Positions 521 to 64,000 of a stretch of 64,000 nucleotides of DNA are shown here, piece by piece. A program made the translations under genes and the position numbers. This stretch comes from the human T2T-CHM13v2.0 reference genome, Homo sapiens. Below the pieces are notes generated by a model that had not been told where the DNA came from, made no database searches, and saw only the letters and a program-made list of their open reading frames with translations. The stretch is from contig CP086569.2 in NCBI GenBank assembly GCA_009914755.4, positions 28,000,001 through 28,064,000 on the forward strand. The letters run 5' to 3'. Each line of letters opens with the position of its first letter. Within the stretch, counting starts at the first letter, position 1.

Positions 521-721
521 ATGGACTGGAATGAAGTGGACAGGAAAGGAATGGACTCAAATTGAAAGGGCTCGAAAGGAATGGAGTCAAATGGAATGGT
601 CTGGAATGGAATGAACACGAATGTAATGCAATCCAATAGAATGGAATCGAATGGCATGGAATATAAAGAAATGGAATCGAAGAGAATGGAAACAAACGGA
701 ATGGAATTGAATGGAATGGAA

Positions 722-39147: not shown

Positions 39148-40991
39148 CTCGAATTTCATGAAACGGAATGGAATGAATTGGAACGGAATGGACTCGAATG
39201 GAATGGAATGTCATGGAATGGCATCAAATGGAATGGCATCAAATGGAATGGAATCGAATGCAATGGAATGCTATGGAATGGAATGGAATGCATTGGAATG
39301 GAATGTCCTCTAATGGAATGGATTCGAGTGGAATGGAATCGAATATAATGGAGTCGAATGAAATGGAATCTCAAGGAATTGATGTGAACGGAACGGAATG
39401 GAATGGAATCCAAAGAAATGGAATAGAATGGAATGGAATCGAATGGAAAGAACTCGAATGGAAATCACTCGAATAGAATGCAATTTAATAAAATAGGATG
39501 AAATGTAACGGAATGGAATGGAAAGGAATCGAAACGAAAGGAATGGAGACAGATGGAATGGAATGGAACAGAGAGCAATGGTATAGAATGGAATGGAATC
39601 ATCTGGAATGGAATTGAATGGAATGGAATAATATGAAATGGAATGGAATGGAATGGAATGCCCTTGAATTAAATGGACTGGAATGGAATGGACTCGAACA
39701 GAGTGGAATGGAAAGTGTTGAGATAGAATGGAATGGACTCCTTTGGAATGGTCTAGTATGCAATGCAATGGACTGGCAGGGAATCAAAAGGAATGTAATC
39801 GAATGGATTGGACTGGAATGCAATGGACTCGAATAGATTGGAAACGGAATGCAAAGGAATGGAATGGAATAGTATGGAATGGAATGGAAAGGAATGGAGT
39901 GGAATAGACTAGAGTGGAATGGAATGGACTCGAAAGCAATGGACTGGAATGGAACTTTCTTGAATGGACTGGAATCAAACGGAATGGAATGCAATGCAAT
40001 CAAATGGCATGGAATAAAATAGAATGAAAGAGAATCAAATGGAATTGAATCGAATGCAATCGAATGGATTGGAAAGGAATAGAATGGAATGGAATGGAAT
40101 TGACTCAAATGGAATGGACTAGAATGGAATGGATTCGAATGGAAGGCAAAGGAATGGAATCTATCGGAATGGACAGCAATGGAATGGAAAGGAAGGGATT
40201 GGAATGGACTCGAATGGAATGGACTGCAATAGAAAGGATTCGAATGGAATGAAAAAGAATTGAATGGAATAGAACAGAATGGAATCAAATCGAATGAAAT
40301 GGAATGGAATAGAAAGGAATGGAATGAAATGGAATGGAAAGGATTCGAATGGAATGCAATCGAATGGAATGGAATCGAACGGAATGGAATAAAATGGAAG
40401 CAAACTGGCAAGAAATGGAATCGAAATGAATGGAGTGTTATGGAACGGACTCCAAAGGAATTGAATGTAATAGAATGGAGTGGAGTGGACTCGAATATAA
40501 TGGACTGGAATGGAATGAAATCACATGGAATGGGAACGAATGGAATGGAATGGAAAGGAATGGAATCGAATGGAAAGGAATCGAATGGAAGGGAATGAAA
40601 TTGAATCAACAGGAATGGAAGGGAATAGAATAGACGGTAATGGAATGGACTCGAATAGAATGGACACGAATGCTCAAATTGAATGGACTCGAATGGAATG
40701 GAAACGAAAGGAATGTCATCGAATGGAATTGAATCGATTGGAATGAAATGGCATAGAATGGAGTGGAATCAAATGGAATTGAATCGAAAGGAAAGGAAGC
40801 GAATGGACTGAAATGAAATGGAATGGAATTGAATGGAAAGTAAAGCAATGGAATAGAATGGAACGAAATTTCACGGAATGGAATCAAACTGAATGGAATC
40901 AAATCAATGGAATATAATCAAATGGAATGGAAAGGAATTGAATGGAGTAGATGGGATTGGATGGGATTGGAATGAAATGTACTGGAAAGGA
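39148..40991 (+). repeat. HOR unit 12, truncated to 1844 bp by a ~1690-bp internal deletion.
   Basis: Landmark spacing is only 1844 bp. At about 39363-39375, 'cgaatgaaatggaatc|tcaaggaattgatgtgaacgg' joins unit offset ~220 directly to offset ~1911. This unit has no GGCC site. Confidence 0.85.
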
Positions 40992-43900
40992 CTCGAATTT
41001 CATGAAACGGAATGGAATGAATTGGAACGGAATGGACTCGAATGGAATGGAATGTCATGGAATGGCATCAAATGGAATGGCATCAAATGGAATGGAATCG
41101 AATGCAATGGAATGCTATGGAATGGAATGGAATGCATTGGAATGGAATGTCCTCTAATGGAATGGATTCGAGTGGAATGGAATCGAATATAATGGAGTCG
41201 AATGAAATGAAATTGAAAGGAATGGGATCGAATACAATGGAATATACTGGAATGTAATGTAATGAACTCGAATGTAATTGACTGGAATGGAATGTACATG
41301 AATGGAATGTAATCGAATGGAAAGTAATCCAATGGAATAGAATCTAATGCAATAAAATCGACTCAGATAGAGTAGAATGTAATGGAATGGAGTGCAGTGC
41401 AATGGAATGGAATGGAATGGAATGCAATGGAATGGAATGGAATGGGATGGAATGGTATGGAATGGATAGTAATGGACTGGAGTGAAATGGACTGGAAAGG
41501 AATGGACTCAAATTGAAAGGGCTCGAAAGGAATGGAGTCAAATGGAATGGTCTGGAATGAAATGAACACGAATGTAATGCAATCCAATAGAATGGAATCG
41601 AATGGCATGGAATATAAAGAAATGGAATCGAAGAGAATGGAAACAAACGGAATGGAATTGAATGGAATGGAATTGAATGGAATGGGAACGAATGGAGTGA
41701 AATTGTATGCAGTAGAAGAGAATAGAATGGAATGCAAGCGAAAGGAAAGGAATGGATTGGAATGGAATGGAATTCATTGGAATGGAAGGGAATGTAGTGT
41801 AATGGACAGGCCTGGAATAAAGTGGAATGCTACGGTCTCGAATGGAATAAAAATGTATGGAATGGAATGCAAAGAAACGGAATCGAATGTCATAGAATGT
41901 AATGGAATGCAAAAAAATGGACTCCAAAATCATTGACTGGAAAGGCTGGGTGTCGAAAGGAATTGACTCCAATGGAATGGAATCGAATGGAATGGAAGTG
42001 AATAGAATCGAACTAAATCGAATGGAATGGAATTGATAGGAACGGAATGGAAAGGAATGAAATGATTTGGCATGGAATGGAATCGAATGGCATCGAATGG
42101 AATGGAATGGAATGCAATGCAATGGAATGTATTAGAATGTAATGAACTTTAATGGAATGTACTCGAATGGATTCGACTGGAATGGAATGTTCTGGAAGTG
42201 AATGGACTCCAATGGAATGGATTCAAAAGGAATGGAATCGTACGGAATGGAATCTAATGGAATGGAATTAAATGGAAATGAATCAAATTGAATAGCACGG
42301 AATTGAATTGAATGGAATCGAATGCAATGGAATCTAATGAAACGGAAAGGAAAGGAATGGAATGGAATGGAATGGGCTGGAATGGAAAGGAATCGAAACG
42401 AATGGAATGGAATCGAACTGAAGAGACTGGAATGGAATGCACTGGAATGGAAGGGAGTGTAATGGAAGGTTCTCGAAAAAAATGGAATCGAATGGAATGG
42501 AATTGAATGGAACGGAATAGAGTCGAATGGAATTGAATGGAATGGAATGGACTAGAGTGAAATGGAATCGAACCACAAGGAATGGACAGGAATAGAATGG
42601 TCTCGAATTGAATGGAATCGTATGGAATGGCATCAAACGGAATGGAATGGACAGCCACGGAATGGAATGCACTCGAATGCAATGGAGTCGAAACTAATGG
42701 ACTGGAATAGAATGGACTCGACTGGTACGGACTCCAATGGAATGGAATCGAATTGAAGGGAATCGAACGGAATGGACTCGAAGGGAAAAGACTGCAATGG
42801 AAAGGTCTCGAATGGAATGGAAATTAATGGAATGGAATGGAATCGAATGAAATGGAGTCAAAAGGAATGGAATCGAATGGCAAGAAATCGAATGTAATGG
42901 AATCGCAAGGAATTGATGTGAACGGAACGGAATGGAATGGAATCCAAAGAAATGGAATAGAATGGAATGGAATCGAATGGAAAGAACTCGAATGGAAATC
43001 ACTCGAATAGAATGCAATTTAATAAAATAGGATGAAATGTAATGGAATGGAATGGAAAGGAATCGAAACGAAAGGAATGGAGACAGATGGAATGGAATGG
43101 AACAGAGAGCAATGGTATAGAATGGAATGGAATCATCTGGAATGGAATTGAATGGAATGGAATAATATGAAATGGAATGGAATGGAATGGAATGCCCTTG
43201 AATTAAATGGACTGGAATGGAATGGACTCGAACAGAGTGGAATGGAAAGTGTTGAGATAGAATGGAATGGACTCCTTTGGAATGGTCTAGTATGCAATGC
43301 AATGGACTGGCAGGGAATCAAAAGGAATGTAATCGAATGGATTGGACTGGAATGCAATGGACTCGAATAGATTGGAAACGGAATGCAAAGGAATGGAATG
43401 GAATAGTATGGAATGGAATGGAAAGGAATGGAGTGGAATAGACTAGAGTGGAATGGAATGGACTCGAAAGCAATGGACTGGAATGGAACTTTCTTGAATG
43501 GACTGGAATCAAACGGAATGGAATGCAATGCAATCAAATGGCATGGAATAAAATAGAATGAAAGAGAATCAAATGGAATTGAATCGAATGGAATCGAATG
43601 GATTGGAAAGGAATAGAATGGAATGGAATGGAATTGACTCAAATGGAATGGACTAGAATGGAATGGATTCGAATGGAAGGCAAAGGAATGGAATCTATCG
43701 GAATGGACAGCAATGGAATGGAAAGGAAGGGATTGGAATGGACTCGAATGGAATGGACTGCAATAGAAAGGATTCGAATGGAATGAAAAAGAATTGAATG
43801 GAATAGAACAGAATGGAATCAAATCGAATGAAATGGAATGGAATAGAAAGGAATGGAATGAAATGGAATGGAAAGGATTCGAATGGAATGCAATCGAATG

Positions 43901-44525
43901 GAATGGAATCGAACGGAATGGAATAAAATGGAAGCAAACTGGCAAGAAATGGAATCGAAATGAATGGAGTGTTATGGAACGGACTCAAAAGGAATTGAAT
44001 GTAATAGAATGGAGTGGAGTGGACTCGAATATAATGGACTGGAATGGAATGAAATCACATGGAATGGGAACGAATGGAATGGAATGGAAAGGAATGGAAT
44101 CGAATGGAAAGGAATCGAATGGAAGGGAATGAAATTGAATCAACAGGAATGGAAGGGAATAGAATAGACGGTAATGGAATGGACTCGAATAGAATGGACA
44201 CGAATGCTCAAATTGAATGGACTCGAATGGAATGGAAACGAAAGGAATGTCATCGAATGGAATTGAATCGATTGGAATGAAATCGCATAGAATGGAGTGG
44301 AATCAAATGGAATTGAATCGAAAGGAAAGGAAGCGAATGGACTGAAATGAAATGGAATGGAATTGAATGGAAAGTAAAGCAATGGAATAGAATGGAACGA
44401 AATTTCACGGAATGGAATCAAACTGAATGGAATCAAATCAATGGAATATAATCAAATGGAATGGAAAGGAATTGAATGGAGTAGATGGGATTGGATGGGA
44501 TTGGAATGAAATGTACTGGAAAGGA
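40992..44525 (+). repeat. HOR unit 13, 3534 bp (short variant).
   Basis: Landmark spacing is 3534 bp. Confidence 0.9.
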
Positions 44526-47500
44526 CTCGAATTTCATGAAACGGAATGGAATGAATTGGAACGGAATGGACTCGAATGGAATGGAATGTCATGGAATGGC
44601 ATCAAATGGAATGGCATCAAATGGAATGGAATCGAATGCAATGGAATGCTATGGAATGGAATGGAATGCATTGGAATGGAATGTCCTCTAATGGAATGGA
44701 TTCGAGTGGAATGGAATCGAATATAATGGAGTCGAATGAAATGGAATTGAAAGGAATGGGATCGAATACAATGGAATATACTGGAATGTAATGTAATGAA
44801 CTCGAATGTAATTGACTGGAATGGAATGTACATGAATGGAATGTAATCGAATGGAAAGTAATCCAATGGAATAGAATCTAATGCAATAAAATCGACTCAG
44901 ATAGAGTAGAATGTAATGGAATGGAGTGCAGTGCAATGGAATGGAATGGAATGGAATGCAATGGAATGGAATGGAATGGGATGGAATGGTATGGAATGGA
45001 TAGTAATGGACTGGAGTGAAATGGACTGGAAAGGAATGGACTCAAATTGAAAGGGCTCGAAAGGAATGGAGTCAAATGGAATGGTCTGGAATGGAATGAA
45101 CACGAATGTAATGCAATCCAATAGAATGGAATCGAATGGCATGGAATATAAAGAAATGGAATCGAAGAGAATGGAAACAAACGGAATGGAATTGAATGGA
45201 ATGGAATTGAATGGAATGGGAACGAATGGAGTGAAATTGTATGCAGTAGAAGAGAATAGAATGGAATGCAAGCGAAAGGAAAGGAATGGATTGGAATGGA
45301 ATGGAATTCATGGGAATGGAAGGGAATGTAGTGTAATGGACAGGCCTGGAATAAAGTGGAATGCTACGGTCTCGAATGGAATAAAAATGTATGGAATGGA
45401 ATGCAAAGAAACGGAATCGAATGTCATAGAATGTAATGGAATGCAAAAAAATGGACTCCAAAATCATTGACTGGAAAGGCTGGGTGTCGAAAGGAATTGA
45501 CTCCAATGGAATGGAATCGAATGGAATGGAAGTGAATAGAATCGAACTAAATCGAATGGAATGGAATTGATAGGAACGGAATGGAAAGGAATGAAATGAT
45601 TTGGCATGGAATGGAATCGAATGGCATCGAATGGAATGGAATGGAATGCAATGCAATGGAATGTATTAGAATGTAATGAACTTTAATGGAATGTACTCGA
45701 ATGGATTCGACTGGAATGGAATGTTCTGGAAGTGAATGGACTCCAATGGAATGGATTGAAAAGGAATGGAATCGTACGGAATGGAATCTAATGGAATGGA
45801 ATTAAATGGAAATGAATGAAATTGAATAGCACGGAATTGAATTGAATGGAATCGAATGCAATGGAATCTAATGAAACGGAAAGGAAAGGAATGGAATGGA
45901 AAGGAATGGGCTGGAATGGAAAGGAATCGAAACGAATGGAATGGAATCGAACTGAGGAGACTGGAATGGAATGCACTTCAACGGAAGGGAGTGTAATGGA
46001 AGGTTCTCGAAAAAAATGGAATCGAATGGAATGGAATTGAATGGAACGGAATAGAGTCGAATGGAATTGAATGGAATGGAATGGACTAGAGTGAAATGGA
46101 ATCGAACCACAAGGAATGGACAGGAATAGAATGGTCTCGAATTGAATGGAATCGTATGGAATGGCATCAAACGGAATGGAATGGACAGCCACGGAATGGA
46201 ATGCACTCGAATGCAATGGAGTCGAAACTAATGGACTGGAATAGAATGGACTCGACTGGTACGGACTCCAATGGAATGGAATCGAATGGAAGGGATTCGA
46301 ACGGAATGGACTCGAAGGGAAAAGACTGCAATGGAAAGGTCTCGAATGGAATGGAAATTAATGGAATGGAATGGAATCGAATGAAATGGAGTCAAAAGGA
46401 ATGGAATCGAATGGCAAGAAATCGAATGTAATGGAATCGCAAGGAATTGATGTGAACGGAACGGAATGGAATGGAATCCAAAGAAATGGAATAGAATGGA
46501 ATGGAATCGAATGGAAAGAACTCGAATGGAAATCACTCGAATAGAATGCAATTTAATAAAATAGGATGAAATGTAACGGAATGGAATGGAAAGGAATCGA
46601 AACGAAAGGAATGGAGACAGATGGAATGGAATGGAACAGAGAGCAATGGTATAGAATGGAATGGAATCATCTGGAATGGAATTGAATGGAATGGAATAAT
46701 ATGAAATGGAATGGAATGGAATGGAATGCCCTTGAATTAAATGGACTGGAATGGAATGGACTCGAACAGAGTGGAATGGAAAGTGTTGAGATAGAATGGA
46801 ATGGACTCCTTTGGAATGGTCTAGTATGCAATGCAATGGACTGGCAGGGAATCAAAAGGAATGTAATCGAATGGATTGGACTGGAATGCAATGGACTCGA
46901 ATAGATTGGAAACGGAATGCAAAGGAATGGAATGGAATAGTATGGAATGGAATGGAAAGGAATGGAGTGGAATAGACTAGAGTGGAATGGAATGGACTCG
47001 AAAGCAATGGACTGGAATGGAACTTTCTTGAATGGACTGGAATCAAACGGAATGGAATGCAATGCAATCAAATGGCATGGAATAAAATAGAATGAAAGAG
47101 AATCAAATGGAATTGAATCGAATGGAATCGAATGGATTGGAAAGGAATAGAATGGAATGGAATGGAATTGACTCAAATGGAATGGACTAGAATGGAATGG
47201 ATTCGAATGGAAGGCAAAGGAATGGAATCTATCGGAATGGACAGCAATGGAATGGAAAGGAAGGGATTGGAATGGACTCGAATGGAATGGACTGCAATAG
47301 AAAGGATTCGAATGGAATGAAAAAGAATTGAATGGAATAGAACAGAATGGAATCAAATCGAATGAAATGGAATGGAATAGAAAGGAATGGAATGAAATGG
47401 AATGGAAAGGATTCGAATGGAATGCAATCGAATGGAATGGAATCGAACGGAATGGAATAAAATGGAAGCAAACTGGCAAGAAATGGAATCGAAATGAATG

Positions 47501-48059
47501 GAGTGTTATGGAACGGACTCCAAAGGAATTGAATGTAATAGAATGGAGTGGAGTGGACTCGAATATAATGGACTGGAATGGAATGAAATCACATGGAATG
47601 GGAACGAATGGAATGGAATGGAAAGGAATGGAATCGAATGGAAAGGAATCGAATGGAAGGGAATGAAATTGAATCAACAGGAATGGAAGGGAATAGAATA
47701 GACGGTAATGGAATGGACTCGAATAGAATGGACACGAATGCTCAAATTGAATGGACTCGAATGGAATGGAAACGAAAGGAAAGTCAACAAATGGAATTGA
47801 ATCGATTGGAATGAAATCGCATAGAATGGAGTGGAATCAAATGGAATTGAATCGAAAGGAAAGGAAGCGAATGGACTGAAATGAAATGGAATGGAATTGA
47901 ATGGAAAGTAAAGCAATGGAATAGAATGGAACGAAATTTCACGGAATGGAATCAAACTGAATGGAATCAAATCAATGGAATATAATCAAATGGAATGGAA
48001 AGGAATTGAATGGAGTAGATGGGATTGGATGGGATTGGAATGAAATGTACTGGAAAGGA
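44526..48059 (+). repeat. HOR unit 14, 3534 bp (short variant).
   Basis: Landmark spacing is 3534 bp. Confidence 0.9.
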
Positions 48060-51000
48060 CTCGAATTTCATGAAACGGAATGGAATGAATTGGAACGGAA
48101 TGGACTCGAATGGAATGGAATGTCATGGAATGGCATCAAATGGAATGGAATCGAATGCAATGGAATGCTATGGAATGGAATGGAATGCATTGGAATGGAA
48201 TGTCCTCTAATGGAATGGATTCGAGTGGAATGGAATCGAATATAATGGAGTCGAATGAAATGGAATTGAAAGGAATGGGATCGAATACAATGGAATATAC
48301 TGGAATGTAATGTAATGAACTCGAATGTAATTGACTGGAATGGAATGTACATGAATGGAATGTAATCGAATGGAAAGTAATCCAATGGAATAGAATCTAA
48401 TGCAATAAAATCGACTCAGATAGAGTAGAATGTAATGGAATGGAGTGCAGTGCAATGGAATGGAATGGAATGGAATGCAATGGAATGGAATGGAATGGAA
48501 TGGAATGGGATGGAATGGTATGGAATGGATAGTAATGGACTGGAGTGAAATGGACTGGAAAGGAATGGACTCAAATTGAAAGGGCTCGAAAGGAATGGAG
48601 TCAATTGGAATGGTCTGGAATGGAATGAACACGAATGTAATGCAATCCAATAGAATGGAATCGAATGGCATGGAATATAAAGAAATGGAATCGAAGAGAA
48701 TGGAAACAAATGGAATGGAATTGAATGGAATGGAATTGAATGGAATGGGAACGAATGGAGTGAAATTGTATGCAGTAGAAGAGAATAGAATGGAATGCAA
48801 GCGAAAGGAAAGGAATGGATTGGAATGGAATGGAATTCATTGGAATGGAAGGGAATGTAGTGTAATGGACAGGCCTGGAATAAAGTGGAATGCTACGGTC
48901 TCGAATGGAATAAAAATGTATGGAATGGAATGCAATGAAACGGAATCGAATGTCATAGAATGTAATGGAATGCAAAAAAATGGACTCCAAAATCATTGAC
49001 TGGAAAGGCTGGGTGTCGAAAGGAATTGACTCCAATGGAATGGAATCGAATGGAATGGAAGTGAATAGAATCGAACTAAATCGAATGGAATGGAATTGAT
49101 AGGAACGGAATGGAAAGGAATGAAATGATTTGGCATGGAATGGAATCGAATGGCATCGAATGGAATGGAATGGAATGCAATGCAATGGAATGTATTAGAA
49201 TGTAATGAACTTTAATGGAATGTACTCGAATGGATTCGACTGGAATGGAATGTTCTGGAAGTGAATGGACTCCAATGGAATGGATTCAAAAGGAATGGAA
49301 TCGTACGGAATGGAATCTAATGGAATGGAATTAAATGGAAATGAATGAAATTGAATAGCACGGAATTGAATTGAATGGAATCGAATGCAATGGAATCTAA
49401 TGAAACGGAAAGGAAAGGAATGGAATGGAATGGAATGGGCTGGAATGGAAAGGAATCGAAACGAATGGAATGGAATCGAACTGAAGAGACTGGAATGGAA
49501 TGCACTGGAATGGAAGGGAGTGTAATGGAAGGTTCTCGAAAAAAATGGAATCGAATGGAATGGAATTGAATGGAACGGAATAGAGTCGAATGGAATTGAA
49601 TGGAATGGAATGGACTAGAGTGAAATGGAATCGAACCACAAGGAATGGACAGGAATAGAATGGTCTCGAATTGAATGGAATCGTATGGAATGGCATCAAA
49701 CGGAATGGAATGGACAGCCACGGAATGGAATGCACTCGAATGCAATGGAGTCGAAACTAATGGACTGGAATAGAATGGACTCGACTGGTACGGACTCCAA
49801 TGGAATGGAATCGAATGGAAGGGAATCGAACGGAATGGACTCGAAGGGAAAAGATTGCAATGGAAAGGTCTCGAATGGAATGGAAATTAATGGAATGGAA
49901 TGGAATCGAATGAAATGGAGTCAAAAGGAATGGAATCGAATGGCAAGAAATCGAATGTAATGGAATCGCAAGGAATTGATGTGAACGGAACGGAATGGAA
50001 TGGAATCCAAAGAAATGGAATAGAATGGAATGGAATCGAATGGAAAGAACTCGAATGGAAATCACTCGAATAGAATGCAATTTAATAAAATAGGATGAAA
50101 TGTAATGGAATGGAATGGAAAGGAATCGAAACGAAAGGAATGGAGACAGATGGAATGGAATGGAACAGAGAGCAATGGTATAGAATGGAATGGAATCATC
50201 TGGAATGGAATTGAATGGAATGGAATAATATGAAATGGAATGGAATGGAATGGAATGCCCTTGAATTAAATGGACTGGAATGGAATGGACTCGAACAGAG
50301 TGGAATGGAAAGTGTTGAGATAGAATGGAATGGACTCCTTTGGAATGGTCTAGTATGCAATGCAATGGACTGGCAGGGAATCAAAAGGAATGTAATCGAA
50401 TGGATTGGACTGGAATGCAATGGACTCGAATAGATTGGAAACGGAATGCAAAGGAATGGAATGGAATAGTATGGAATGGAATGGAAAGGAATGGAGTGGA
50501 ATAGACTAGAGTGGAATGGAATGGACTCGAAAGCAATGGACTGGAATGGAACTTTCTTGAATGGACTGGAATCAAACGGAATGGAATGCAATGCAATCAA
50601 ATGGCATGGAATAAAATAGAATGAAAGAGAATCAAATGGAATTGAATCGAATGGAATCGAATGGATTGGAAAGGAATAGAATGGAATGGAATGGAATTGA
50701 CTCAAATGGAATGGACTACAATGGAATGGATTCGAATGGAAGGCAAAGGAATGGAATCTATCGGAATGGACAGCAATGGAATGGAAAGGAAGGGATTGGA
50801 ATGGACTCGAATGGAATGGACTGCAATAGAAAGGATTCGAATGGAATGAAAAAGAATTGAATGGAATAGAACAGAATGGAATCAAATCGAATGAAATGGA
50901 ATGGAATAGAAAGGAATGGAATGAAATGGAATGGAAAGGATTCGAATGGAATGCAATCGAATGGAATGGAATCGAACGGAATGGAATAAAATGGAAGCAA

Positions 51001-51588
51001 ACTGGCAAGAAATGGAATCGAAATGAATGGATTGTTATGGAACGGACTCCAAAGGAATTGAATGTAATAGAATGGAGTGGAGTGGACTCGAATATAATGG
51101 ACTGGAATGGAATGAAATCACATGGAATGGGAACGAATGGAATGGAATGGAAAGGAATGGAATCGAATGGAAAGGAATCGAATGGAAGGGAATGAAATTG
51201 AATCAACAGGAATGGAAGGGAATAGAATAGACGGTAATGGAATGGACTCGAATAGAATGGACACGAATGCTCAAATTGAATGGACTCGAATGGAATGGAA
51301 ACGAAAGGAATGTCATCGAATGGAATTGAATCGATTGGAATGAAATCGCATAGAATGGAGTGGAATCAAATGGAATTGAATCGAAAGGAAAGGAAGCGAA
51401 TGGACTGAAATGAAATGGAATGGAATTGAATGGAAAGTAAAGCAATGGAATAGAATGGAACGAAATTTCACGGAATGGAATCAAACTGAATGGAATCAAA
51501 TCAATGGAATATAATCAAATGGAATGGAAAGGAATTGAATGGAGTAGATGGGATTGGATGGGATTGGAATGAAATGTACTGGAAAGGA
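48060..51588 (+). repeat. HOR unit 15, 3529 bp (short variant with a 15-bp deletion and a 10-bp expansion).
   Basis: It has one copy rather than two of 'ggcatcaaatggaat' at about 48125-48140. It has two extra ggaat pentamers at about 48470-48500. Confidence 0.9.
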
Positions 51589-54500
51589 CTCGAATTTCAT
51601 GAAACGGAATGGAATGAATTGGAACGGAATGGACTCGAATGGAATGGAATGTCATGGAATGGCATCAAATGGAATGGCATCAAATGGAATGGAATCGAAT
51701 GCAATGGAATGCTATGGAATGGAATGGAATGCATTGGAATGGAATGTCCTCTAATGGAATGGATTCGAGTGGAATGGAATCGAATATAATGGAGTCGAAT
51801 GAAATGGAATTGAAAGGAATGGGATCGAATACAATGGAATATACTGGAATGTAATGTAATGAACTCGAATGTAATTGACTGGAATGGAATGTACATGAAT
51901 GGAATGTAATCGAATGGAAAGTAATCCAATGGAATAGAATCTAATGCAATAAAATCGACTCAGATAGAGTAGAATGTAATGGAATGGAGTGCAGTGCAAT
52001 GGAATGGAATGGAATGGAATGCAATGGAATGGAATGGAATGGGATGGAATGGTATGGAATGGATAGTAATGGACTGGAGTGAAATGGACTGGAAAGGAAT
52101 GGACTCAAATTGAAAGGGCTCGAAAGGAATGGAGTCAAATGGAATGGTCTGGAATGGAATGAACACGAATGTAATGCAATCCAATAGAATGGAATCGAAT
52201 GGCATGGAATATAAAGAAATGGAATCGAAGAGAATGGAAACAAACGGAATGGAATTGAATGGAATGGAATTGAATGGAATGGGAACGAATGGAGTGAAAT
52301 TGTATGCAGTAGAAGAGAATAGAATGGAATGCAAGCGAAAGGAAAGGAATGGATTGGAATGGAATGGAATTCATGGGAATGGAAGGGAATGTAGTGTAAT
52401 GGACAGGCCTGGAATAAAGTGGAATGCTACGGTCTCGAATGGAATAAAAATGTATGGAATGGAATGCAAAGAAACGGAATCGAATGTCATAGAATGTAAT
52501 GGAATGCAAAAAAATGGACTCCAAAATCATTGACTGGAAAGGCTGGGTGTCGAAAGGAATTGACTCCAATGGAATGGAATCGAATGGAATGGAAGTGAAT
52601 AGAATCGAACTAAATCGAATGGAATGGAATTGATAGGAACGGAATGGAAAGGAATGAAATGATTTGGCATGGAATGGAATCGAATGGCATCGAATGGAAT
52701 GGAATGGAATGGAATGCAATGGAATGTATTAGAATGTAATGAACTTTAATGGAATGTACTCGAATGGATTCGACTAGAATGGAATGTTCTGGAAGTGAAT
52801 GGACTCCAATGGAATGGATTGAAAAGGAATGGAATCGTACGGAATGGAATCTAATGGAATGGAATTAAATGGAAATGAATGAAATTGAATAGCACGGAAT
52901 TGAATTGAATGGAATCGAATGCAATGGAATCTAATGAAACGGAAAGGAAAGGAATGGAATGGAATGGAATGGGCTGGAATGGAAAGGAATCGAAACGAAT
53001 GGAATGGAATCGAACTGAAGAGACTGGAATGGAATGCACTGGAATGGAAGGGAGTGTAATGGAAGGTTCTCGAAAAAAATGGAATCGAATGGAATGGAAT
53101 TGAATGGAACGGAATAGAGTCGAATGGAATTGAATGGAATGGAATGGACTAGAGTGAAATGGAATCGAACCACAAGGAATGGACAGGAATAGAATGGTCT
53201 CGAATTGAATGGAATCGTATGGAATGGCATCAAACGGAATGGAATGGACAGCCACGGAATGGAATGCACTCGAATGCAATGGAGTCGAAACTAATGGACT
53301 GGAATAGAATGGACTCGACTGGTACGGACTCCAATGGAATGGAATCGAATGGAAGGGAATCGAACGGAATGGACTCGAAGGGAAAAGACTGCAATGGAAA
53401 GGTCTCGAATGGAATGGAAATTAATGGAATGGAATGGAATCGAATGAAATGGAGTCAAAAGGAATGGAATCGAATGGCAAGAAATCGAATGTAATGGAAT
53501 CGCAAGGAATTGATGTGAACGGAACGGAATGGAATGGAATCCAAAGAAATGGAATAGAATGGAATGGAATCGAATGGAAAGAACTCGAATGGAAATCACT
53601 CGAATAGAATGCAATTTAATAAAATAGGATGAAATGTAACGGAATGGAATGGAAAGGAATCGAAACGAAAGGAATGGAGACAGATGGAATGGAATGGAAC
53701 AGAGAGCAATGGTATAGAATGGAATGGAATCATCTGGAATGGAATTGAATGGAATGGAATAATATGAAATGGAATGGAATGGAATGGAATGCCCTTGAAT
53801 TAAATGGACTGGAATGGAATGGACTCGAACAGAGTGGAATGGAAAGTGTTGAGATAGAATGGAATGGACTCCTTTGGAATGGTCTAGTATGCAATGCAAT
53901 GGACTGGCAGGGAATCAAAAGGAATGTAATCGAATGGATTGGACTGGAATGCAATGGACTCGAATAGATTGGAAACGGAATGCAAAGGAATGGAATGGAA
54001 TAGTATGGAATGGAATGGAAAGGAATGGAGTGGAATAGACTAGAGTGGAATGGAATGGACTCGAAAGCAATGGACTGGAATGGAACTTTCTTGAATGGAC
54101 TGGAATCAAACGGAATGGAATGCAATGCAATCAAATGGCATGGAATAAAATAGAATGAAAGAGAATCAAATGGAATTGAATCGAATGCAATCGAATGGAT
54201 TGGAAAGGAATAGAATGGAATGGAATGGAATTGACTCAAATGGAATGGACTAGAATGGAATGGATTCGAATGGAAGGCAAAGGAATGGAATCTATCGGAA
54301 TGGACAGCAATGGAATGGAAAGGAAGGGATTGGAATGGACTCGAATGGAATGGACTGCAATAGAAAGGATTCGAATGGAATGAAAAAGAATTGAATGGAA
54401 TAGAACAGAATGGAATCAAATCGAATGAAATGGAATGGAATAGAAAGGAATGGAATGAAATGGAATGGAAAGGATTCGAATGGAATGCAATCGAATGGAA

Positions 54501-56367
54501 TGGAATCGAACGGAATGGAATAAAATGGAAGAAAACTGGCAAGAAATGGAATCGAAATGAATGGAGTGTTATGGAACGGACTCCAAAGGAATTGAATGTA
54601 ATAGAATGGAGTGGAGTGGACTCGAATATAATGGACTGGAATGGAATGAAATCACATGGAATGGGAACGAATGGAATGGAATGGAAAGGAATGGAATCGA
54701 ATGGAAAGGAATCGAATGGAAGGGAATGAAATTGAATCAACAGGAATGGAAGGGAATAGAATAGACGGTAATGGAATGGACTCGAATAGAATGGACACGA
54801 ATGCTCAAATTGAATGGACTCGAATGGAATGGAAACGAAAGGAATGTCATGGAATGGAATTGAATCGATTGGAATGAAATGGCATAGAATGGAGTGGAAT
54901 CAAATGGAATTGAATCGAAAGGAAAGGAAGCGAATGGACTGAAATGAAATGGAATGGAATTGAATGGAAAGTAAAGCAATGGAATAGAATGGAACGAAAT
55001 TTCACGGAATGGAATCAAACTGAATGGAATCAAATCAATGGAATATAATCAAATGGAATGGAAAGGAATTGAATGGAGTAGATGGGATTGGATGGGATTG
55101 GAATGAAATGTACTGGAAAGGACTCGAATTTCATGAAACGGAATGGAATGAATTGGAACGGAATGGACTCGAATGGAATGGAATGTCATGGAATGGCATC
55201 AAATGGAATAGCATCAAATGGAATGGAATCGAATGCAATGGAATGCTATGGAATGGAATGGAATGCATTGGAATGGAATGTCCTCTAATGGAATGGATTC
55301 GAGTGGAATGGAATCGAATATAATGGAGTCGAATGAAATGGAATTGAAAGGAATGGGATCGAATACAATGGAATATACTGGAATGTAATGTAATGAACTC
55401 GAATGTAATTGACTGGAATGGAATGTACATGAATGGAATGTAATCGAATGGAAAGTAATCCAATGGAATAGAATCTAATGCAATAAAATCGACTCAGATA
55501 GAGTAGAATGTAATGGAATGGAGTGCAGTGCAATGGAATGGAATGGAATGGAATGCAATGGAATGGAATGGAATGGGATGGAATGGTATGGAATGGATAG
55601 TAATGGACTGGAGTGAAATGGACTGGAAAGGAATGGACTCAAATTGAAAGGGCTCGAAAGGAATGGAGTCAAATGGAATGGTCTGGAATGGAATGAACAC
55701 GAATGTAATGCAATCCAATAGAATGGAATCGAATGGCATGGAATATAAAGAAATGGAATCGAAGAGAATGGAAACAAACGGAATGGAATTGAATGGAATG
55801 GAATTGAATGGAATGGGAACGAATGGAGTGAAATTGTATGCAGTAGAAGAGAATAGAATGGAATGCAAGCGAAAGGAAAGGAATGGATTGGAATGGAATG
55901 GAATTCATGAGAATGGAAGGGAATGTAGTTTAATGGACAGGCCTGGAATAAAGTGGAATGCTACGGTCTCGAATGGAATAAAAATGTATGGAATGGAATG
56001 CAAAGAAACGGAATCGAATGTCATAGAATGTAATGGAATGCAAAAAAATGGACTCCAAAATCATTGACTGGAAAGGCTGGGTGTCGAAAGGAATTGACTC
56101 CAATGGAATGGAATCGAATGGAATGGAAGTGAATAGAATCGAACTAAATCGAATGGAATGGAATTGATAGGAACGGAATGGAAAGGAATGAAATGATTTG
56201 GCATGGAATGGAATCGAATGGCATCGAATGGAATGGAATGGAATGCAATGCAATGGAATGTATTAGAATGTAATGAACTTTAATGGAATGTACTCGAATG
56301 GATTCGACTGGAATGGAATGTTCTGGAAGTGAATGGACTCCAATGGAATGGATTCAAAAGGAATGGA
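49300..56367 (+). repeat. Copy A of a 7068-bp two-unit super-repeat. Boundaries are approximate.
   Basis: Unit-specific variant patterns across about 49.3-56.4 kb recur at +7068 bp in about 56.4-63.4 kb. These include 'IHENGRECSLMDRPG' against 'IHGNG', 'KKTGKKW', 'EWIVMERT', 'ECHGMELNRLE', 'HLMLFH', 'AIFSL' and 'HCSPFH'. Translated ORF pairs at 7068-bp spacing match. Confidence 0.75.
51589..55122 (+). repeat. HOR unit 16, 3534 bp (short variant).
   Basis: Landmark spacing is 3534 bp. Confidence 0.9.
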
Positions 56368-58656
56368 ATCGTACGGAATGGAATCTAATGGAATGGAATT
56401 AAATGGAAATGAATGAAATTGAATAGCACGGAATTGAATTGAATGGAATCGAATGCAATGGAATCTAATGAAACGGAAAGGAAAGGAATGGAATGGAATG
56501 GAATGGGCTGGAATGGAAAGGAATCGAAACGAATGGAATGGAATCGAACTGAAGAGACTGGAATGGAATGCACTGGAATGGAAGGGAGTGTAATGGAAGG
56601 TTCTCGAAAAAAATGGAATCGAATGGAATGGAATTGAATGGAACGGAATAGAGTCGAATGGAATTGAATGGAATGGAATGGACTAGAGTGAAATGGAATC
56701 GAACCACAAGGAATGGACAGGAATAGAATGGTCTCGAATTGAATGGAATCGTATGGAATGGCATCAAACGGAATGGAATGGACAGCCACGGAATGGAATG
56801 CACTCGAATGCAATGGAGTCGAAACTAATGGACTGGAATAGAATGGACTCGACTGGTACGGACTCCAATGGAATGGAATCGAATGGAAGGGAATCGAACG
56901 GAATGGACTCGAAGGGAAAAGATTGCAATGGAAAGGTCTCGAATGGAATGGAAATTAATGGAATGGAATGGAATCGAATGAAATGGAGTCAAAAGGAATG
57001 GAATCGAATGGCAAGAAATCGAATGTAATGGAATCGCAAGGAATTGATGTGAACGGAACGGAATGGAATGGAATCCAAAGAAATGGAATAGAATGGAATG
57101 GAATCGAATGGAAAGAACTCGAATGGAAATCACTCGAATAGAATGCAATTTAATAAAATAGGATGAAATGTAATGGAATGGAATGGAAAGGAATCGAAAT
57201 GAAAGGAATGGAGACAGATGGAATGGAATGGAACAGAGAGCAATGGTATAGAATGGAATGGAATCATCTGGAATGGAATTGAATGGAATGGAATAATATG
57301 AAATGGAATGGAATGGAATGGAATGCCCTTGAATTAAATGGACTGGAATGGAATGGACTCGAACAGAGTGGAATGGAAAGTGTTGAGATAGAATGGAATG
57401 GACTCCTTTGGAATGGTCTAGTATGCAATGCAATGGACTGGCAGGGAATCAAAAGGAATGTAATCGAATGGATTGGACTGGAATGCAATGGACTCGAATA
57501 GATTGGAAACGGAATGCAAAGGAATGGAATGGAATAGTATGGAATGGAATGGAAAGGAATGGAGTGGAATAGACTAGAGTGGAATGGAATGGACTCGAAA
57601 GCAATGGACTGGAATGGAACTTTCTTGAATGGACTGGAATCAAACGGAATGGAATGCAATGCAATCAAATGGCATGGAATAAAATAGAATGAAAGAGAAT
57701 CAAATGGAATTGAATCGAATGGAATCGAATGGATTGGAAAGGAATAGAATGGAATGGAATGGAATTGACTCAAATGGAATGGACTACAATGGAATGGATT
57801 CGAATGGAAGGCAAAGGAATGGAATCTATCGGAATGGACAGCAATGGAATGGAAAGGAAGGGATTGGAATGGACTCGAATGGAATGGACTGCAATAGAAA
57901 GGATTCGAATGGAATGAAAAAGAATTGAATGGAATAGAACAGAATGGAATCAAATCGAATGAAATGGAATGGAATAGAAAGGAATGGAATGAAATGGAAT
58001 GGAAAGGATTCGAATGGAATGCAATCGAATGGAATGGAATCGAACGGAATGGAATAAAATGGAAGCAAACTGGCAAGAAATGGAATCGAAATGAATGGAT
58101 TGTTATGGAACGGACTCCAAAGGAATTGAATGTAATAGAATGGAGTGGAGTGGACTCGAATATAATGGACTGGAATGGAATGAAATCACATGGAATGGGA
58201 ACGAATGGAATGGAATGGAAAGGAATGGAATCGAATGGAAAGGAATCGAATGGAAGGGAATGAAATTGAATCAACAGGAATGGAAGGGAATAGAATAGAC
58301 GGTAATGGAATGGACTCGAATAGAATGGACACGAATGCTCAAATTGAATGGACTCGAATGGAATGGAAACGAAAGGAATGTCATCGAATGGAATTGAATC
58401 GATTGGAATGAAATCGCATAGAATGGAGTGGAATCAAATGGAATTGAATCGAAAGGAAAGGAAGCGAATGGACTGAAATGAAATGGAATGGAATTGAATG
58501 GAAAGTAAAGCAATGGAATAGAATGGAACGAAATTTCACGGAATGGAATCAAACTGAATGGAATCAAATCAATGGAATATAATCAAATGGAATGGAAAGG
58601 AATTGAATGGAGTAGATGGGATTGGATGGGATTGGAATGAAATGTACTGGAAAGGA
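55123..58656 (+). repeat. HOR unit 17, 3534 bp (short variant).
   Basis: Landmark spacing is 3534 bp. Confidence 0.9.
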
Positions 58657-61600
58657 CTCGAATTTCATGAAACGGAATGGAATGAATTGGAACGGAATGG
58701 ACTCGAATGGAATGGAATGTCATGGAATGGCATCAAATGGAATGGCATCAAATGGAATGGAATCGAATGCAATGGAATGCTATGGAATGGAATGGAATGC
58801 ATTGGAATGGAATGTCCTCTAATGGAATGGATTCGAGTGGAATGGAATCGAATATAATGGAGTCGAATGAAATGGAATTGAAAGGAATGGGATCGAATAC
58901 AATGGAATATACTGGAATGTAATGTAATGAACTCGAATGTAATTGACTGGAATGGAATGTACATGAATGGAATGTAATCGAATGGAAAGTAATCCAATGG
59001 AATAGAATCTAATGCAATAAAATCGACTCAGATAGAGTAGAATGTAATGGAATGGAGTGCAGTGCAATGGAATGGAATGGAATGGAATGCAATGGAATGG
59101 AATGGAATGGGATGGAATGGTATGGAATGGATAGTAATGGACTGGAGTGAAATGGACTGGAAAGGAATGGACTCAAATTGAAAGGGCTCGAAAGGAATGG
59201 AGTCAAATGGAATGGTCTGGAATGGAATGAACACGAATGTAATGCAATCCAATAGAATGGAATCGAATGGCATGGAATATAAAGAAATGGAATCGAAGAG
59301 AATGGAAACAAACGGAATGGAATTGAATGGAATGGAATTGAATGGAATGGGAACGAATGGAGTGAAATTGTATGCAGTAGAAGAGAATAGAATGGAATGC
59401 AAGCGAAAGGAAAGGAATGGATTGGAATGGAATGGAATTCATGGGAATGGAAGGGAATGTAGTGTAATGGACAGGCCTGGAATAAAGTGGAATGCTACGG
59501 TCTCGAATGGAATAAAAATGTATGGAATGGAATGCAAAGAAACGGAATCGAATGTCATAGAATGTAATGGAATGCAAAAAAATGGACTCCAAAATCATTG
59601 ACTGGAAAGGCTGGGTGTCGAAAGGAATTGACTCCAATGGAATGGAATCGAATGGAATGGAAGTGAATAGAATCGAACTAAATCGAATGGAATGGAATTG
59701 ATAGGAACGGAATGGAAAGGAATGAAATGATTTGGCATGGAATGGAATCGAATGGCATCGAATGGAATGGAATGGAATGGAATGCAATGGAATGTATTAG
59801 AATGTAATGAACTTTAATGGAATGTACTCGAATGGATTCGACTAGAATGGAATGTTCTGGAAGTGAATGGACTCCAATGGAATGGATTGAAAAGGAATGG
59901 AATCGTACGGAATGGAATCTAATGGAATGGAATTAAATGGAAATGAATGAAATTGAATAGCACGGAATTGAATTGAATGGAATCGAATGCAATGGAATCT
60001 AATGAAACGGAAAGGAAAGGAATGGAATGGAATGGAATGGGCTGGAATGGAAAGGAATCGAAACGAATGGAATGGAATCGAACTGAAGAGACTGGAATGG
60101 AATGCACTGGAATGGAAGGGAGTGTAATGGAAGGTTCTCGAAAAAAATGGAATCGAATGGAATGGAATTGAATGGAACGGAATAGAGTCGAATGGAATTG
60201 AATGGAATGGAATGGACTAGAGTGAAATGGAATCGAACCACAAGGAATGGACAGGAATAGAATGGTCTCGAATTGAATGGAATCGTATGGAATGGCATCA
60301 AACGGAATGGAATGGACAGCCACGGAATGGAATGCACTCGAATGCAATGGAGTCGAAACTAATGGACTGGAATAGAATGGACTCGACTGGTACGGACTCC
60401 AATGGAATGGAATCGAATGGAAGGGAATCGAACGGAATGGACTCGAAGGGAAAAGACTGCAATGGAAAGGTCTCGAATGGAATGGAAATTAATGGAATGG
60501 AATGGAATCGAATGAAATGGAGTCAAAAGGAATGGAATCGAATGGCAAGAAATCGAATGTAATGGAATCGCAAGGAATTGATGTGAACGGAACGGAATGG
60601 AATGGAATCCAAAGAAATGGAATAGAATGGAATGGAATCGAATGGAAAGAACTCGAATGGAAATCACTCGAATAGAATGCAATTTAATAAAATAGGATGA
60701 AATGTAACGGAATGGAATGGAAAGGAATCGAAACGAAAGGAATGGAGACAGATGGAATGGAATGGAACAGAGAGCAATGGTATAGAATGGAATGGAATCA
60801 TCTGGAATGGAATTGAATGGAATGGAATAATATGAAATGGAATGGAATGGAATGGAATGCCCTTGAATTAAATGGACTGGAATGGAATGGACTCGAACAG
60901 AGTGGAATGGAAAGTGTTGAGATAGAATGGAATGGACTCCTTTGGAATGGTCTAGTATGCAATGCAATGGACTGGCAGGGAATCAAAAGGAATGTAATCG
61001 AATGGATTGGACTGGAATGCAATGGACTCGAATAGATTGGAAACGGAATGCAAAGGAATGGAATGGAATAGTATGGAATGGAATGGAAAGGAATGGAGTG
61101 GAATAGACTAGAGTGGAATGGAATGGACTCGAAAGCAATGGACTGGAATGGAACTTTCTTGAATGGACTGGAATCAAACGGAATGGAATGCAATGCAATC
61201 AAATGGCATGGAATAAAATAGAATGAAAGAGAATCAAATGGAATTGAATCGAATGCAATCGAATGGATTGGAAAGGAATAGAATGGAATGGAATGGAATT
61301 GACTCAAATGGAATGGACTAGAATGGAATGGATTCGAATGGAAGGCAAAGGAATGGAATCTATCGGAATGGACAGCAATGGAATGGAAAGGAAGGGATTG
61401 GAATGGACTCGAATGGAATGGACTGCAATAGAAAGGATTCGAATGGAATGAAAAAGAATTGAATGGAATAGAACAGAATGGAATCAAATCGAATGAAATG
61501 GAATGGAATAGAAAGGAATGGAATGAAATGGAATGGAAAGGATTCGAATGGAATGCAATCGAATGGAATGGAATCGAACGGAATGGAATAAAATGGAAGA

Positions 61601-63435
61601 AAACTGGCAAGAAATGGAATCGAAATGAATGGAGTGTTATGGAACGGACTCCAAAGGAATTGAATGTAATAGAATGGAGTGGAGTGGACTCGAATATAAT
61701 GGACTGGAATGGAATGAAATCACATGGAATGGGAACGAATGGAATGGAATGGAAAGGAATGGAATCGAATGGAAAGGAATCGAATGGAAGGGAATGAAAT
61801 TGAATCAACAGGAATGGAAGGGAATAGAATAGACGGTAATGGAATGGACTCGAATAGAATGGACACGAATGCTCAAATTGAATGGACTCGAATGGAATGG
61901 AAACGAAAGGAATGTCATGGAATGGAATTGAATCGATTGGAATGAAATGGCATAGAATGGAGTGGAATCAAATGGAATTGAATCGAAAGGAAAGGAAGCG
62001 AATGGACTGAAATGAAATGGAATGGAATTGAATGGAAAGTAAAGCAATGGAATAGAATGGAACGAAATTTCACGGAATGGAATCAAACTGAATGGAATCA
62101 AATCAATGGAATATAATCAAATGGAATGGAAAGGAATTGAATGGAGTAGATGGGATTGGATGGGATTGGAATGAAATGTACTGGAAAGGACTCGAATTTC
62201 ATGAAACGGAATGGAATGAATTGGAACGGAATGGACTCGAATGGAATGGAATGTCATGGAATGGCATCAAATGGAATAGCATCAAATGGAATGGAATCGA
62301 ATGCAATGGAATGCTATGGAATGGAATGGAATGCATTGGAATGGAATGTCCTCTAATGGAATGGATTCGAGTGGAATGGAATCGAATATAATGGAGTCGA
62401 ATGAAATGGAATTGAAAGGAATGGGATCGAATACAATGGAATATACTGGAATGTAATGTAATGAACTCGAATGTAATTGACTGGAATGGAATGTACATGA
62501 ATGGAATGTAATCGAATGGAAAGTAATCCAATGGAATAGAATCTAATGCAATAAAATCGACTCAGATAGAGTAGAATGTAATGGAATGGAGTGCAGTGCA
62601 ATGGAATGGAATGGAATGGAATGCAATGGAATGGAATGGAATGGGATGGAATGGTATGGAATGGATAGTAATGGACTGGAGTGAAATGGACTGGAAAGGA
62701 ATGGACTCAAATTGAAAGGGCTCGAAAGGAATGGAGTCAAATGGAATGGTCTGGAATGGAATGAACACGAATGTAATGCAATCCAATAGAATGGAATCGA
62801 ATGGCATGGAATATAAAGAAATGGAATCGAAGAGAATGGAAACAAACGGAATGGAATTGAATGGAATGGAATTGAATGGAATGGGAACGAATGGAGTGAA
62901 ATTGTATGCAGTAGAAGAGAATAGAATGGAATGCAAGCGAAAGGAAAGGAATGGATTGGAATGGAATGGAATTCATGAGAATGGAAGGGAATGTAGTTTA
63001 ATGGACAGGCCTGGAATAAAGTGGAATGCTACGGTCTCGAATGGAATAAAAATGTATGGAATGGAATGCAAAGAAACGGAATCGAATGTCATAGAATGTA
63101 ATGGAATGCAAAAAAATGGACTCCAAAATCATTGACTGGAAAGGCTGGGTGTCGAAAGGAATTGACTCCAATGGAATGGAATCGAATGGAATGGAAGTGA
63201 ATAGAATCGAACTAAATCGAATGGAATGGAATTGATAGGAACGGAATGGAAAGGAATGAAATGATTTGGCATGGAATGGAATCGAATGGCATCGAATGGA
63301 ATGGAATGGAATGCAATGCAATGGAATGTATTAGAATGTAATGAACTTTAATGGAATGTACTCGAATGGATTCGACTGGAATGGAATGTTCTGGAAGTGA
63401 ATGGACTCCAATGGAATGGATTCAAAAGGAATGGA
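56368..63435 (+). repeat. Copy B of the 7068-bp two-unit super-repeat. Boundaries are approximate.
   Basis: See copy A. Example ORF-track pairs at exactly +7068 bp are 52135/59203, 53730/60798, 55663/62731 and 55930/62998. Confidence 0.75.
58657..62190 (+). repeat. HOR unit 18, 3534 bp (short variant).
   Basis: Landmark spacing is 3534 bp. Confidence 0.9.
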
Positions 63436-64000
63436 ATCGTACGGAATGGAATCTAATGGAATGGAATTAAATGGAAATGAATGAAATTGAATAGCACGGA
63501 ATTGAATTGAATGGAATCGAATGCAATGGAATCTAATGAAACGGAAAGGAAAGGAATGGAATGGAATGGGCTGGAATGGAAAGGAATCGAAACGAATGGA
63601 ATGGAATCGAACTGAAGAGACTGGAATGGAATGCACTGGAATGGAAGGGAGTGTAATGGAAGGTTCTCGAAAAAAATGGAATCGAATGGAATGGAATTGA
63701 ATGGAACGGAATAGAGTCGAATGGAATTGAATGGAATGGAATGGACTAGAGTGAAATGGAATCGAACCACAAGGAATGGACAGGAATAGAATGGTCTCGA
63801 ATTGAATGGAATCGTATGGAATGGCATCAAACGGAATGGAATGGACAGCCACGGAATGGAATGCACTCGAATGCAATGGAGTCGAAACTAATGGACTGGA
63901 ATAGAATGGACTCGACTGGTACGGACTCCAATGGAATGGAATCGAATGGAAGGGAATCGAACGGAATGGACTCGAAGGGAAAAGACTGCAATGGAAAGGT
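62191..64000 (+). repeat. HOR unit 19, partial (1810 bp to the window end).
   Basis: It starts at the landmark and the window ends inside the unit. It has a 5-bp (one pentamer) loss at about 63560 compared with the corresponding region at about 56490. Confidence 0.85.

What the first reader, a model, noticed from the sequence alone, without database searches (positions are those of the whole stretch)
49300..64000. A 7068-bp two-unit super-repeat in the last ~15 kb
Units 16/18 and units 17/19 alternate in their private variants. Units 16 and 18 share 'KKTGKKW', 'ECHGMELNRLE', 'WNSIKWNG', 'HLMLFH', 'VFFHF' and 'IHGNG', while units 17 and 19 share 'IHENGRECSLMDRPG' and 'agtttaatgg'. The back half of unit 15 matches the back half of unit 17 through 'EWIVMERT', 'MDCYGTDS', 'TTMEW', 'SITIHSF', 'HCSPFH' and 'AIFSL'. 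More than a dozen ORF-track translations recur identically at a spacing of exactly 7068 bp, for example 52135/59203, 53730/60798 and 55663/62731. A block of two units was therefore amplified as a single unit, giving a higher tier of periodicity above the 3.5-kb HOR.
Basis: seen in the sequence. Interest (0 to 1): 0.55.

Follow-up and report, generated by a model that had tools for sequence, protein, structure and literature searches.

The report
Two-unit tandem duplication in DYZ1 satellite
The last 15 kb of this human Y-chromosome DYZ1 satellite array holds one very recent tandem duplication of exactly two 3534-bp repeat units (7068 bp), an ordinary footprint of out-of-register recombination rather than a new layer of repeat organisation.

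Summary
49300-56367 and 56368-63435 differ at 1 of 7068 bases, while adjacent 3534-bp units differ at 14-15 of 3534. The near-identical stretch at lag 7068 runs from 48937 to 56501 (7565 bp) and contains the longest exact repeat in the window (6369 bp).

The whole window is DYZ1 (HSat3A6), the ~3.5-kb GGAAT-derived satellite of human Yq12. It has one HaeIII site per unit, and all 12 published DYZ1 primers map in order in each unit.

The anatomy is that of a single unequal exchange offset by two units: X(U14)-Y(U15)-H(U16)-Y(U17)-Z(U18). H is a clean hybrid. All 13 X/Z differences upstream of 56005 follow Z, and both differences downstream of 56501 follow X. Both edges return to background divergence inside the window.

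So there are two copies from one event. This is not a demonstrated higher tier of periodicity, and the inferred ancestral array shows no two-unit alternation.

The only difference between the copies is a CpG-to-TpG change. At the published Yq12 mutation rate, the event is roughly 5-1000 generations old.

Gains and losses of one or two whole units in Yq12 satellites, and turnover by unequal exchange, are already documented. Low interest; already known.

The parts
1..64000 (-). DYZ1 (HSat3A6) satellite array. It holds 19 units of 3529-3574 bp, two of them cut by the window ends and one internally truncated. The + strand reads GGAAT, so the window is antisense to the conventional TTCCA orientation.
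   Evidence: TRF gives a GGAAT consensus across 18-63996, with one anchor per unit. Unit table. One GGCC site per unit. The 12 published DYZ1 primers map in order. GC is 0.38-0.40.
48937..56004 (.). Copy 1 of the 7068-bp two-unit block. The phase is arbitrary within the 497-bp crossover interval.
   Evidence: The lag-7068 identity stretch starts at 48937. The last mismatch before it is at 48936.
56005..63072 (.). Copy 2 of the 7068-bp block. It differs from copy 1 only at 57200.
47718..51246 (.). Unit X (U14, 3529 bp), the parental unit on the left. Its first 1219 bp lie outside the duplication.
   Evidence: It carries private variants and a 15-bp deletion at 48132, and has the 30-bp form of the pentamer-run indel.
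51247..54780 (.). Unit Y (U15, 3534 bp).
   Evidence: Identical to U17, 0 differences in 3534.
54781..58314 (.). Hybrid unit H (U16). Its front matches Z and its back matches X. This is the junction unit created by the exchange.
   Evidence: At all 13 X/Z differences up to 56004, H matches Z. At both differences from 56495 on, H matches X. There is a single switch.
56005..56501 (.). Crossover interval, where X, H and Z are identical. The equivalent positions are 48937-49433 in X and 63073-63569 in Z.
   Evidence: It is bounded by the last Z-type site (56004) and the first X-type site, a 5-bp indel placed at 56495-56499 by MAFFT. The exact match runs on to 56501.
58315..61848 (.). Unit Y' (U17), the duplicate of Y.
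   Evidence: 0 differences from U15.
61849..64000 (.). Unit Z (U18, cut by the window end), the parental unit on the right. Beyond 63569 it lies outside the duplication.
   Evidence: It has a private 5-bp deletion after 63562 and the ancestral C at 63986, where X and H have T.
57200..57200 (.). The only difference between the two copies. It is T here and C at 50132 and in every other unit that covers this column. The context is ACG to ATG, a CpG transition that arose after the duplication.

Best explanation
The window is part of a DYZ1 (HSat3A6) array of human Yq12. In an ancestral stretch ...X-Y-Z..., two copies of the array paired two units (7068 bp) out of register. The most likely partners are sister chromatids, since Yq12 has no homologue. 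A homologous exchange took place in a 497-bp stretch where X and Z were identical. The product is X-Y-H-Y-Z, with H made of the front of Z and the back of X. This adds exactly 7068 bp. It makes private variants appear to alternate between units, and it makes everything between 48937 and 56501 recur 7068 bp later. One methyl-CpG transition (57200) has accumulated since. The block has no function of its own. It is a snapshot of the expansion and contraction by which this satellite turns over. Shown here: identity as DYZ1, the extent of the identity stretch, the single-switch hybrid unit, and both edges. Inferred: that the exchange was between sister chromatids rather than a replication template switch, and the age.
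For: Identity as DYZ1:
- GGAAT-based array with units of 3529-3574 bp.
- One HaeIII site per unit.
- All 12 DYZ1 primers of PMC3660188 Table 3A map to each unit at the published offsets from the HaeIII site.
- 94.9% identity to the stored text of the AC068123.5 DYZ1 unit. 137 of the 179 mismatches are G/C interchanges, which I read (by inference) as CG printed as GC in the stored text.
- GC of 38-40% against the published 38%.

The duplication:
- 1 mismatch in 7068 against 14-15 in 3534 for adjacent units.
- The identity stretch is 7565 bp, which is 7068 + 497. That is what one exchange offset by two units predicts: the offset plus the gap between the X/Z differences that flank the crossover.
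- H follows Z at 13 of 13 upstream events and X at 2 of 2 downstream events, with one switch.
- Both flanks are at background divergence.

The process is documented for this region:
- T2T-Y reports iterative tandem duplications consistent with unequal exchange, and sister-chromatid exchanges in Yq12 in about 15% of Strand-seq libraries.
- Pedigree data show about one de novo structural variant per Y transmission, each removing or adding one or two whole DYZ2 units.
Against: Only one haplotype and no reads are available, so copy-number gain cannot be told apart from long-tract conversion or from an assembler traversing a repeat loop twice. The right flank is only 431 bp long, so the claim that there are just two copies rests on two differences. 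Sister-chromatid exchange cannot be distinguished from replication slippage or a break-induced template switch on sequence alone.
Confidence: 0.78

Rival explanations
1. This is a real higher-order tier. The 7068-bp dimer is the repeating unit of a longer run that continues beyond the window.
For: The window ends 431 bp after the right edge, so what follows Z is unseen. A weaker lag-2 affinity also exists upstream: U02/U04 differ by 5, against 12 and 9 for the adjacent pairs.
Against: Z departs from X and H at two sites within 431 bp (P = 0.0016 at the within-block rate). The identity stretch is 7068 + 497 bp, as expected for exactly two copies. The ancestral X-Y-Z array and units U08-U13 show no alternation. 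Elsewhere in the window the closest pairs are at lag 1 (U05/U06, 4 differences) as often as at lag 2.
Confidence: 0.08
2. Assembly artefact. The assembler went twice round a loop in the repeat graph, falsely duplicating a two-unit stretch of a near-identical satellite.
For: Near-perfect identity over 7.5 kb in a satellite is the typical look of a false duplication. A mis-join between X and Z would produce the same hybrid unit. Yq12 is described as the hardest region to assemble.
Against: The two copies are not identical. They differ by one CpG-to-TpG change, where every other unit in the window has C. That fits two physical copies better than one sequence written twice. Units differ by about 15 sites in 3.5 kb, which is enough for 15-20 kb accurate reads to phase across the block. 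No reads are available to test this.
Confidence: 0.07
3. Long-tract gene conversion. Five units were already present, and about 7.5 kb of sequence was overwritten from a donor two units away, with no change in copy number.
For: Conversion is active in Yq12. 29% of de novo SNVs match non-orthologous sites, and 17% of events in another pedigree analysis do so. The window itself has a conversion-like 27-bp patch in U13.
Against: The stretch would have to be about 7.1-7.6 kb long, and so coincide with two whole units plus one inter-difference gap. The patch seen here and the de novo events reported are single sites or tens of bases. From general knowledge, mammalian conversion tracts are mostly under 1 kb.
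Confidence: 0.05

Closest known systems
DYZ1 / HSat3A6 arrays of human Yq12 (T2T-Y, bioRxiv 10.1101/2022.12.01.518724; 43 Y assemblies, bioRxiv 10.1101/2022.12.01.518658)
   Same: The pentamer base, the ~3.5-kb unit, the single HaeIII site, the primer map, the GC content and the more than 98% identity between units all match. The published interpretation of turnover by unequal exchange, slippage or NAHR also applies.
   Different: Nothing in kind. The units here are 3574 and 3534 bp, not the most common 3569-bp HaeIII fragment or the 3564-bp reference unit. The differences are multiples of 5 bp in pentamer runs.
De novo whole-unit structural variants in Yq12 satellites (PMC12240836)
   Same: Gains or losses of one or two entire repeat units in one step (2,416-4,839 bp, which is 1-2 DYZ2 units), at about one per Y transmission.
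   Different: Those were seen in DYZ2 and observed directly in a pedigree. Here the event is in DYZ1 and is inferred from its footprint.
Higher-order repeats and 'super-HOR' layers of alpha satellite
   Same: A multi-unit block in which copies of the block are more alike than the units inside it.
   Different: An HOR tier means many homogenised copies. Here there are two copies from one event, with both breakpoints visible.

Membership tests
DYZ1 / HSat3A6 | Built from diverged GGAAT/CATTC pentamers | tested here: met
   TRF gives the consensus GGAATGGAAT(GGAAT) over 18-63996.
DYZ1 / HSat3A6 | Nested tandem unit of about 3.5-3.6 kb | tested here: met
   Units are 3529, 3533, 3534, 3573 and 3574 bp. 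The published figures are ~3.5 kbp and ~3.6 kb.
DYZ1 / HSat3A6 | One HaeIII (GGCC) site per unit, giving the classical ~3.5-kb fragment | tested here: met
   There are 18 GGCC sites, one per complete unit. The truncated U11 lacks it.
DYZ1 / HSat3A6 | Sequence match to published DYZ1 primers and to the reference unit | tested here: met
   12 of 12 primers from PMC3660188 map in order at the stated offsets. Two DYZ1 sexing primers that I recalled from memory match exactly once per unit and face each other 154 bp apart. Identity to the stored AC068123.5 text is 94.9%, and most mismatches look like machine-reading CG/GC swaps.
DYZ1 / HSat3A6 | Located in Yq12, in blocks that alternate with DYZ2 | not testable with these tools
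   The window is DYZ1 from end to end, and no human genome is searchable here.
Higher-order repeat tier (7068-bp period) | Three or more tandem copies of the block, homogenised relative to its internal units | tested here: not met
   There are two copies. The identity stretch is 7068 + 497 bp, and both flanks are at background divergence. The right flank is only 431 bp long.
Tandem duplication by out-of-register homologous exchange | A junction unit that is a single-switch hybrid of the two flanking parental units, with direct and contiguous copies | tested here: met
   H matches Z at 13 of 13 events up to 56004 and matches X at 2 of 2 events from 56495 on.

The most novel reading that the evidence does not exclude
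The dimer is the first step, or the visible edge, of a new 7.07-kb period now spreading through this DYZ1 block. Alternatively, exchange at a two-unit offset is favoured in DYZ1. Either would make a second tier of periodicity a real and recurrent property of the array.
Probability: 0.07. Interest if true: 0.25.

Novelty: already known. Interest (0 to 1): 0.1.

Why it matters
It matters little beyond being a clean example. It shows, base by base, one unequal-exchange event in the Y heterochromatin: parental units, hybrid junction unit, a 497-bp crossover interval and one later CpG mutation. Because it is young, it is probably polymorphic among Y lineages. It could serve as a local marker, or as a check on assembly correctness in Yq12.

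Tried and rejected
- **Coding potential.** The ORFs overlap on both strands and translate to pentamer-derived strings. Pfam gave only sub-threshold low-complexity hits (Extensin_1 at 28 bits against a cut-off of 105; Pentapeptide_4 at 23 against 38).
- **RNA families.** No Rfam match at gathering thresholds.
- **Primer literature.** A search for the two recalled sexing primers found nothing, and a search for '154 bp' found only an irrelevant paper. Their attribution to DYZ1 therefore rests on memory. It was replaced as evidence by the 12 primers printed in PMC3660188.
- **Two-unit structure in other samples.** I looked in public contigs. L010 has 3 units from a 55-kb metagenome contig, which differ by 16-19 substitutions plus 57-81 gap positions, with no lag-2 signal. 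L029 has two units that differ by 1 in 3559 in a short-read assembly, probably a collapsed consensus. Neither is informative.
- **A third copy.** I first read the overhang of more than 7068 bp as the start of a third copy. I rejected this once the site table showed that the overhang is the X/Z-identical crossover interval, and that Z then departs from X and H.
- **A general literature search** on dimers and tandem duplication in DYZ1 returned nothing specific.
Full report
**What the window is.** Tandem Repeats Finder reports one array from 18 to 63996 with the consensus GGAAT. A 23-bp landmark recurs every 3529-3574 bp. GC is 0.38-0.40 with strong G-over-C skew throughout. Cutting at the landmark gives 19 units:
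- a head piece;
- units of 3529 bp, then 3574 bp five times, 3573, 3534, 3533 and 3534 bp;
- a truncated unit of 1844 bp;
- units of 3534, 3534, 3529 and then 3534 bp three times;
- a tail piece cut by the window end.

**Identification as DYZ1.** Each complete unit has exactly one GGCC (HaeIII) site. All 12 primers that PMC3660188 (Table 3A) lists for the 3564-bp HaeIII unit of DYZ1 map to every unit, on the opposite strand, at the published distances from the HaeIII site. Two DYZ1 sexing primers that I recalled from memory match exactly once per unit and face each other 154 bp apart. I could not find them in the paper library, so they count only as support.

A HaeIII unit from the window is 94.9% identical to the stored text of the AC068123.5 reference unit. 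Of the 179 mismatches, 137 are G/C interchanges, which look like CG printed as GC in the machine-read PDF. That last point is my inference.

The published descriptions fit. DYZ1 is HSat3A6, with a unit of about 3.5-3.6 kb derived from the pentamer CATTC. It has 38% GC, and copies are more than 98% alike. Location in Yq12 cannot be tested here.

**Checking the observation.** Adjacent 3534-bp units give 14, 15 and 15 mismatches. A scan for long exact repeats across the whole window puts a 6369-bp exact repeat at lag 7068 far ahead of the next one, 2776 bp at lag 3574.

The lag-7068 stretch runs from 48937 to 56501, which is 7565 bp with a single mismatch at 50132/57200. In the MAFFT alignment of units, U15 equals U17 (0 of 3534). 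U16 against the partial U18 has 1 substitution and one 5-bp indel. U15 against U16 has 15 substitutions.

The probability of 1 or fewer differences in 7565 bp is 4e-13 at the adjacent-unit rate, and 3e-4 at the lowest other lag-2 rate in the window. All 46 ORFs of at least 60 aa inside the stretch are identical at +7068, against 20 of 46 at +3534. The left edge moves to 48937, and there is a right edge at 63569.

**Anatomy.** I call U14 X, U15 Y, U16 H, U17 Y' and U18 Z. X and Z differ at 15 events within the part of Z that the window shows. Up to column 1263 (56004 in H) there are 11 substitutions, a 15-bp indel and a 10-bp indel, and at all 13 of these H carries the Z state. From the 5-bp indel at 56495 on, and at 56923, H carries the X state. 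So H is a hybrid with a single switch, and X, H and Z are identical across 56005-56501.

This is the product expected when two copies of an array ...X-Y-Z... pair two units out of register and exchange within X/Z. The result is X-Y-(front of Z + back of X)-Y-Z. The model also predicts the length of the identity stretch. It should be the offset (7068) plus the gap between the X/Z differences that flank the crossover (497), and 7565 is what is observed.

Outside the stretch, divergence returns to background. There are 13 events in the 1219 bp to the left and 2 events in the 431 bp to the right. The latter has P = 0.0016 at the within-block rate.

The inferred ancestral array shows no two-unit alternation. 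X and Z are no closer to each other than X and Y, and U08-U13 show none either. There are therefore two copies from one event.

**Age.** The one difference is ACG (50132, and every other unit that covers this column) against ATG (57200). That is a CpG transition in copy 2, in a satellite reported as constitutively hypermethylated.
- At the pedigree-based Yq12 rate of 3.86e-7 per bp per generation, two 7068-bp copies gain about 5.5e-3 differences per generation. One difference then corresponds to roughly 180 generations, with a Poisson range of about 5-1000. This is my inference.
- At a euchromatic Y rate of about 0.8e-9 per bp per year (from my own knowledge), the figure would be about 90 thousand years.

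Either way the event is recent and plausibly polymorphic among men.

**Mechanism and rivals.** Out-of-register homologous exchange is the best fit, and it is the process already proposed for this region. It most likely occurred between sister chromatids. [quoted passage not shown] Hallast et al. invoke replication slippage and NAHR for expansions within arrays. A four-generation pedigree shows about one de novo structural variant per Y transmission, each of one or two whole DYZ2 units.

A replication template switch would leave the same footprint and cannot be separated from exchange here. The three rivals stand as follows.
- **Long-tract conversion** is disfavoured, because the tract would have to coincide with two whole units.
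- **A false duplication by the assembler** cannot be excluded without reads. The CpG difference between the copies argues mildly against it.
- **A multi-copy 7-kb tier** that continues past the window end is disfavoured by the two differences in the last 431 bp.

**Not a gene.** The ORFs overlap on both strands and translate into pentamer-derived strings such as SIPFH and MEWNG. Pfam gives only sub-threshold compositional hits, and Rfam gives nothing.

**Related sequence elsewhere.** An exact 23-mer from the unit finds 6 contigs in 'bacterial' genome assemblies and 33 metagenome contigs. Many are 96-99% identical to the window's units. This matches the human Y satellite contamination that the T2T-Y paper describes. 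None is long and accurate enough to test for two-unit structure.

**Verdict.** The satellite, the process and its rate are already described, so interest is low.

Noticed in passing
window 24632-28204 (U07); switch between 25438 and 25948: U07 is a second hybrid unit. It carries the states and length form of the 3574-bp class (U02-U06) up to 25437, and the states of the 3534-bp class from 25948 on. It marks the boundary between two DYZ1 sub-blocks.
   Followed up: partly
window 38806-40649 (U11); junction after 39361: This unit is truncated by a 1690-bp internal deletion. Both deletion edges are followed by the same 8 bases, AATGGAAT, a microhomology in pentamer register. The unit lacks the HaeIII site, so a virtual digest gives a 5378-bp fragment.
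   Followed up: partly
window ~45956-45982 (U13, alignment columns 1812-1838): Four variants within 27 bp are shared only with U01-U06, 20-40 kb away, and with no neighbouring unit. This looks like a short gene-conversion patch.
   Followed up: no
window 6762-24631 (U02-U06): There are older local affinities at mixed offsets. U02/U04 differ by 5, against 12 and 9 for the adjacent pairs, and U05/U06 differ by 4. Exact repeats of 1.7-1.9 kb occur at lag 7148 and of 2.8 kb at lag 3574.
   Followed up: partly
alignment columns 776-815, e.g. window 48479-48488, 28980, 4018: A pure GGAAT run is length-polymorphic between units: full length, 30 bp shorter (U01 and U14) or 40 bp shorter (the rest of the 3534 class). 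This accounts for most of the differences in unit length.
   Followed up: no
L002-L006 (genome contigs) and L007-L039 (metagenome contigs): DYZ1 at 97-99% identity sits in assemblies labelled Senimuribacter sp. DSM 106208, Streptomyces sp. NPDC050549, Streptosporangium violaceochromogenes JCM 3281, Streptomyces kurssanovii JCM 4388 and a Polyangiaceae MAG. It also sits in many metagenome contigs. This is contamination with human male DNA. About a dozen loci, including L001 from Actinomadura cremea JCM 3308, are only about 71% identical. They were not examined and may be other HSat3 subfamilies or misassemblies.
   Followed up: partly
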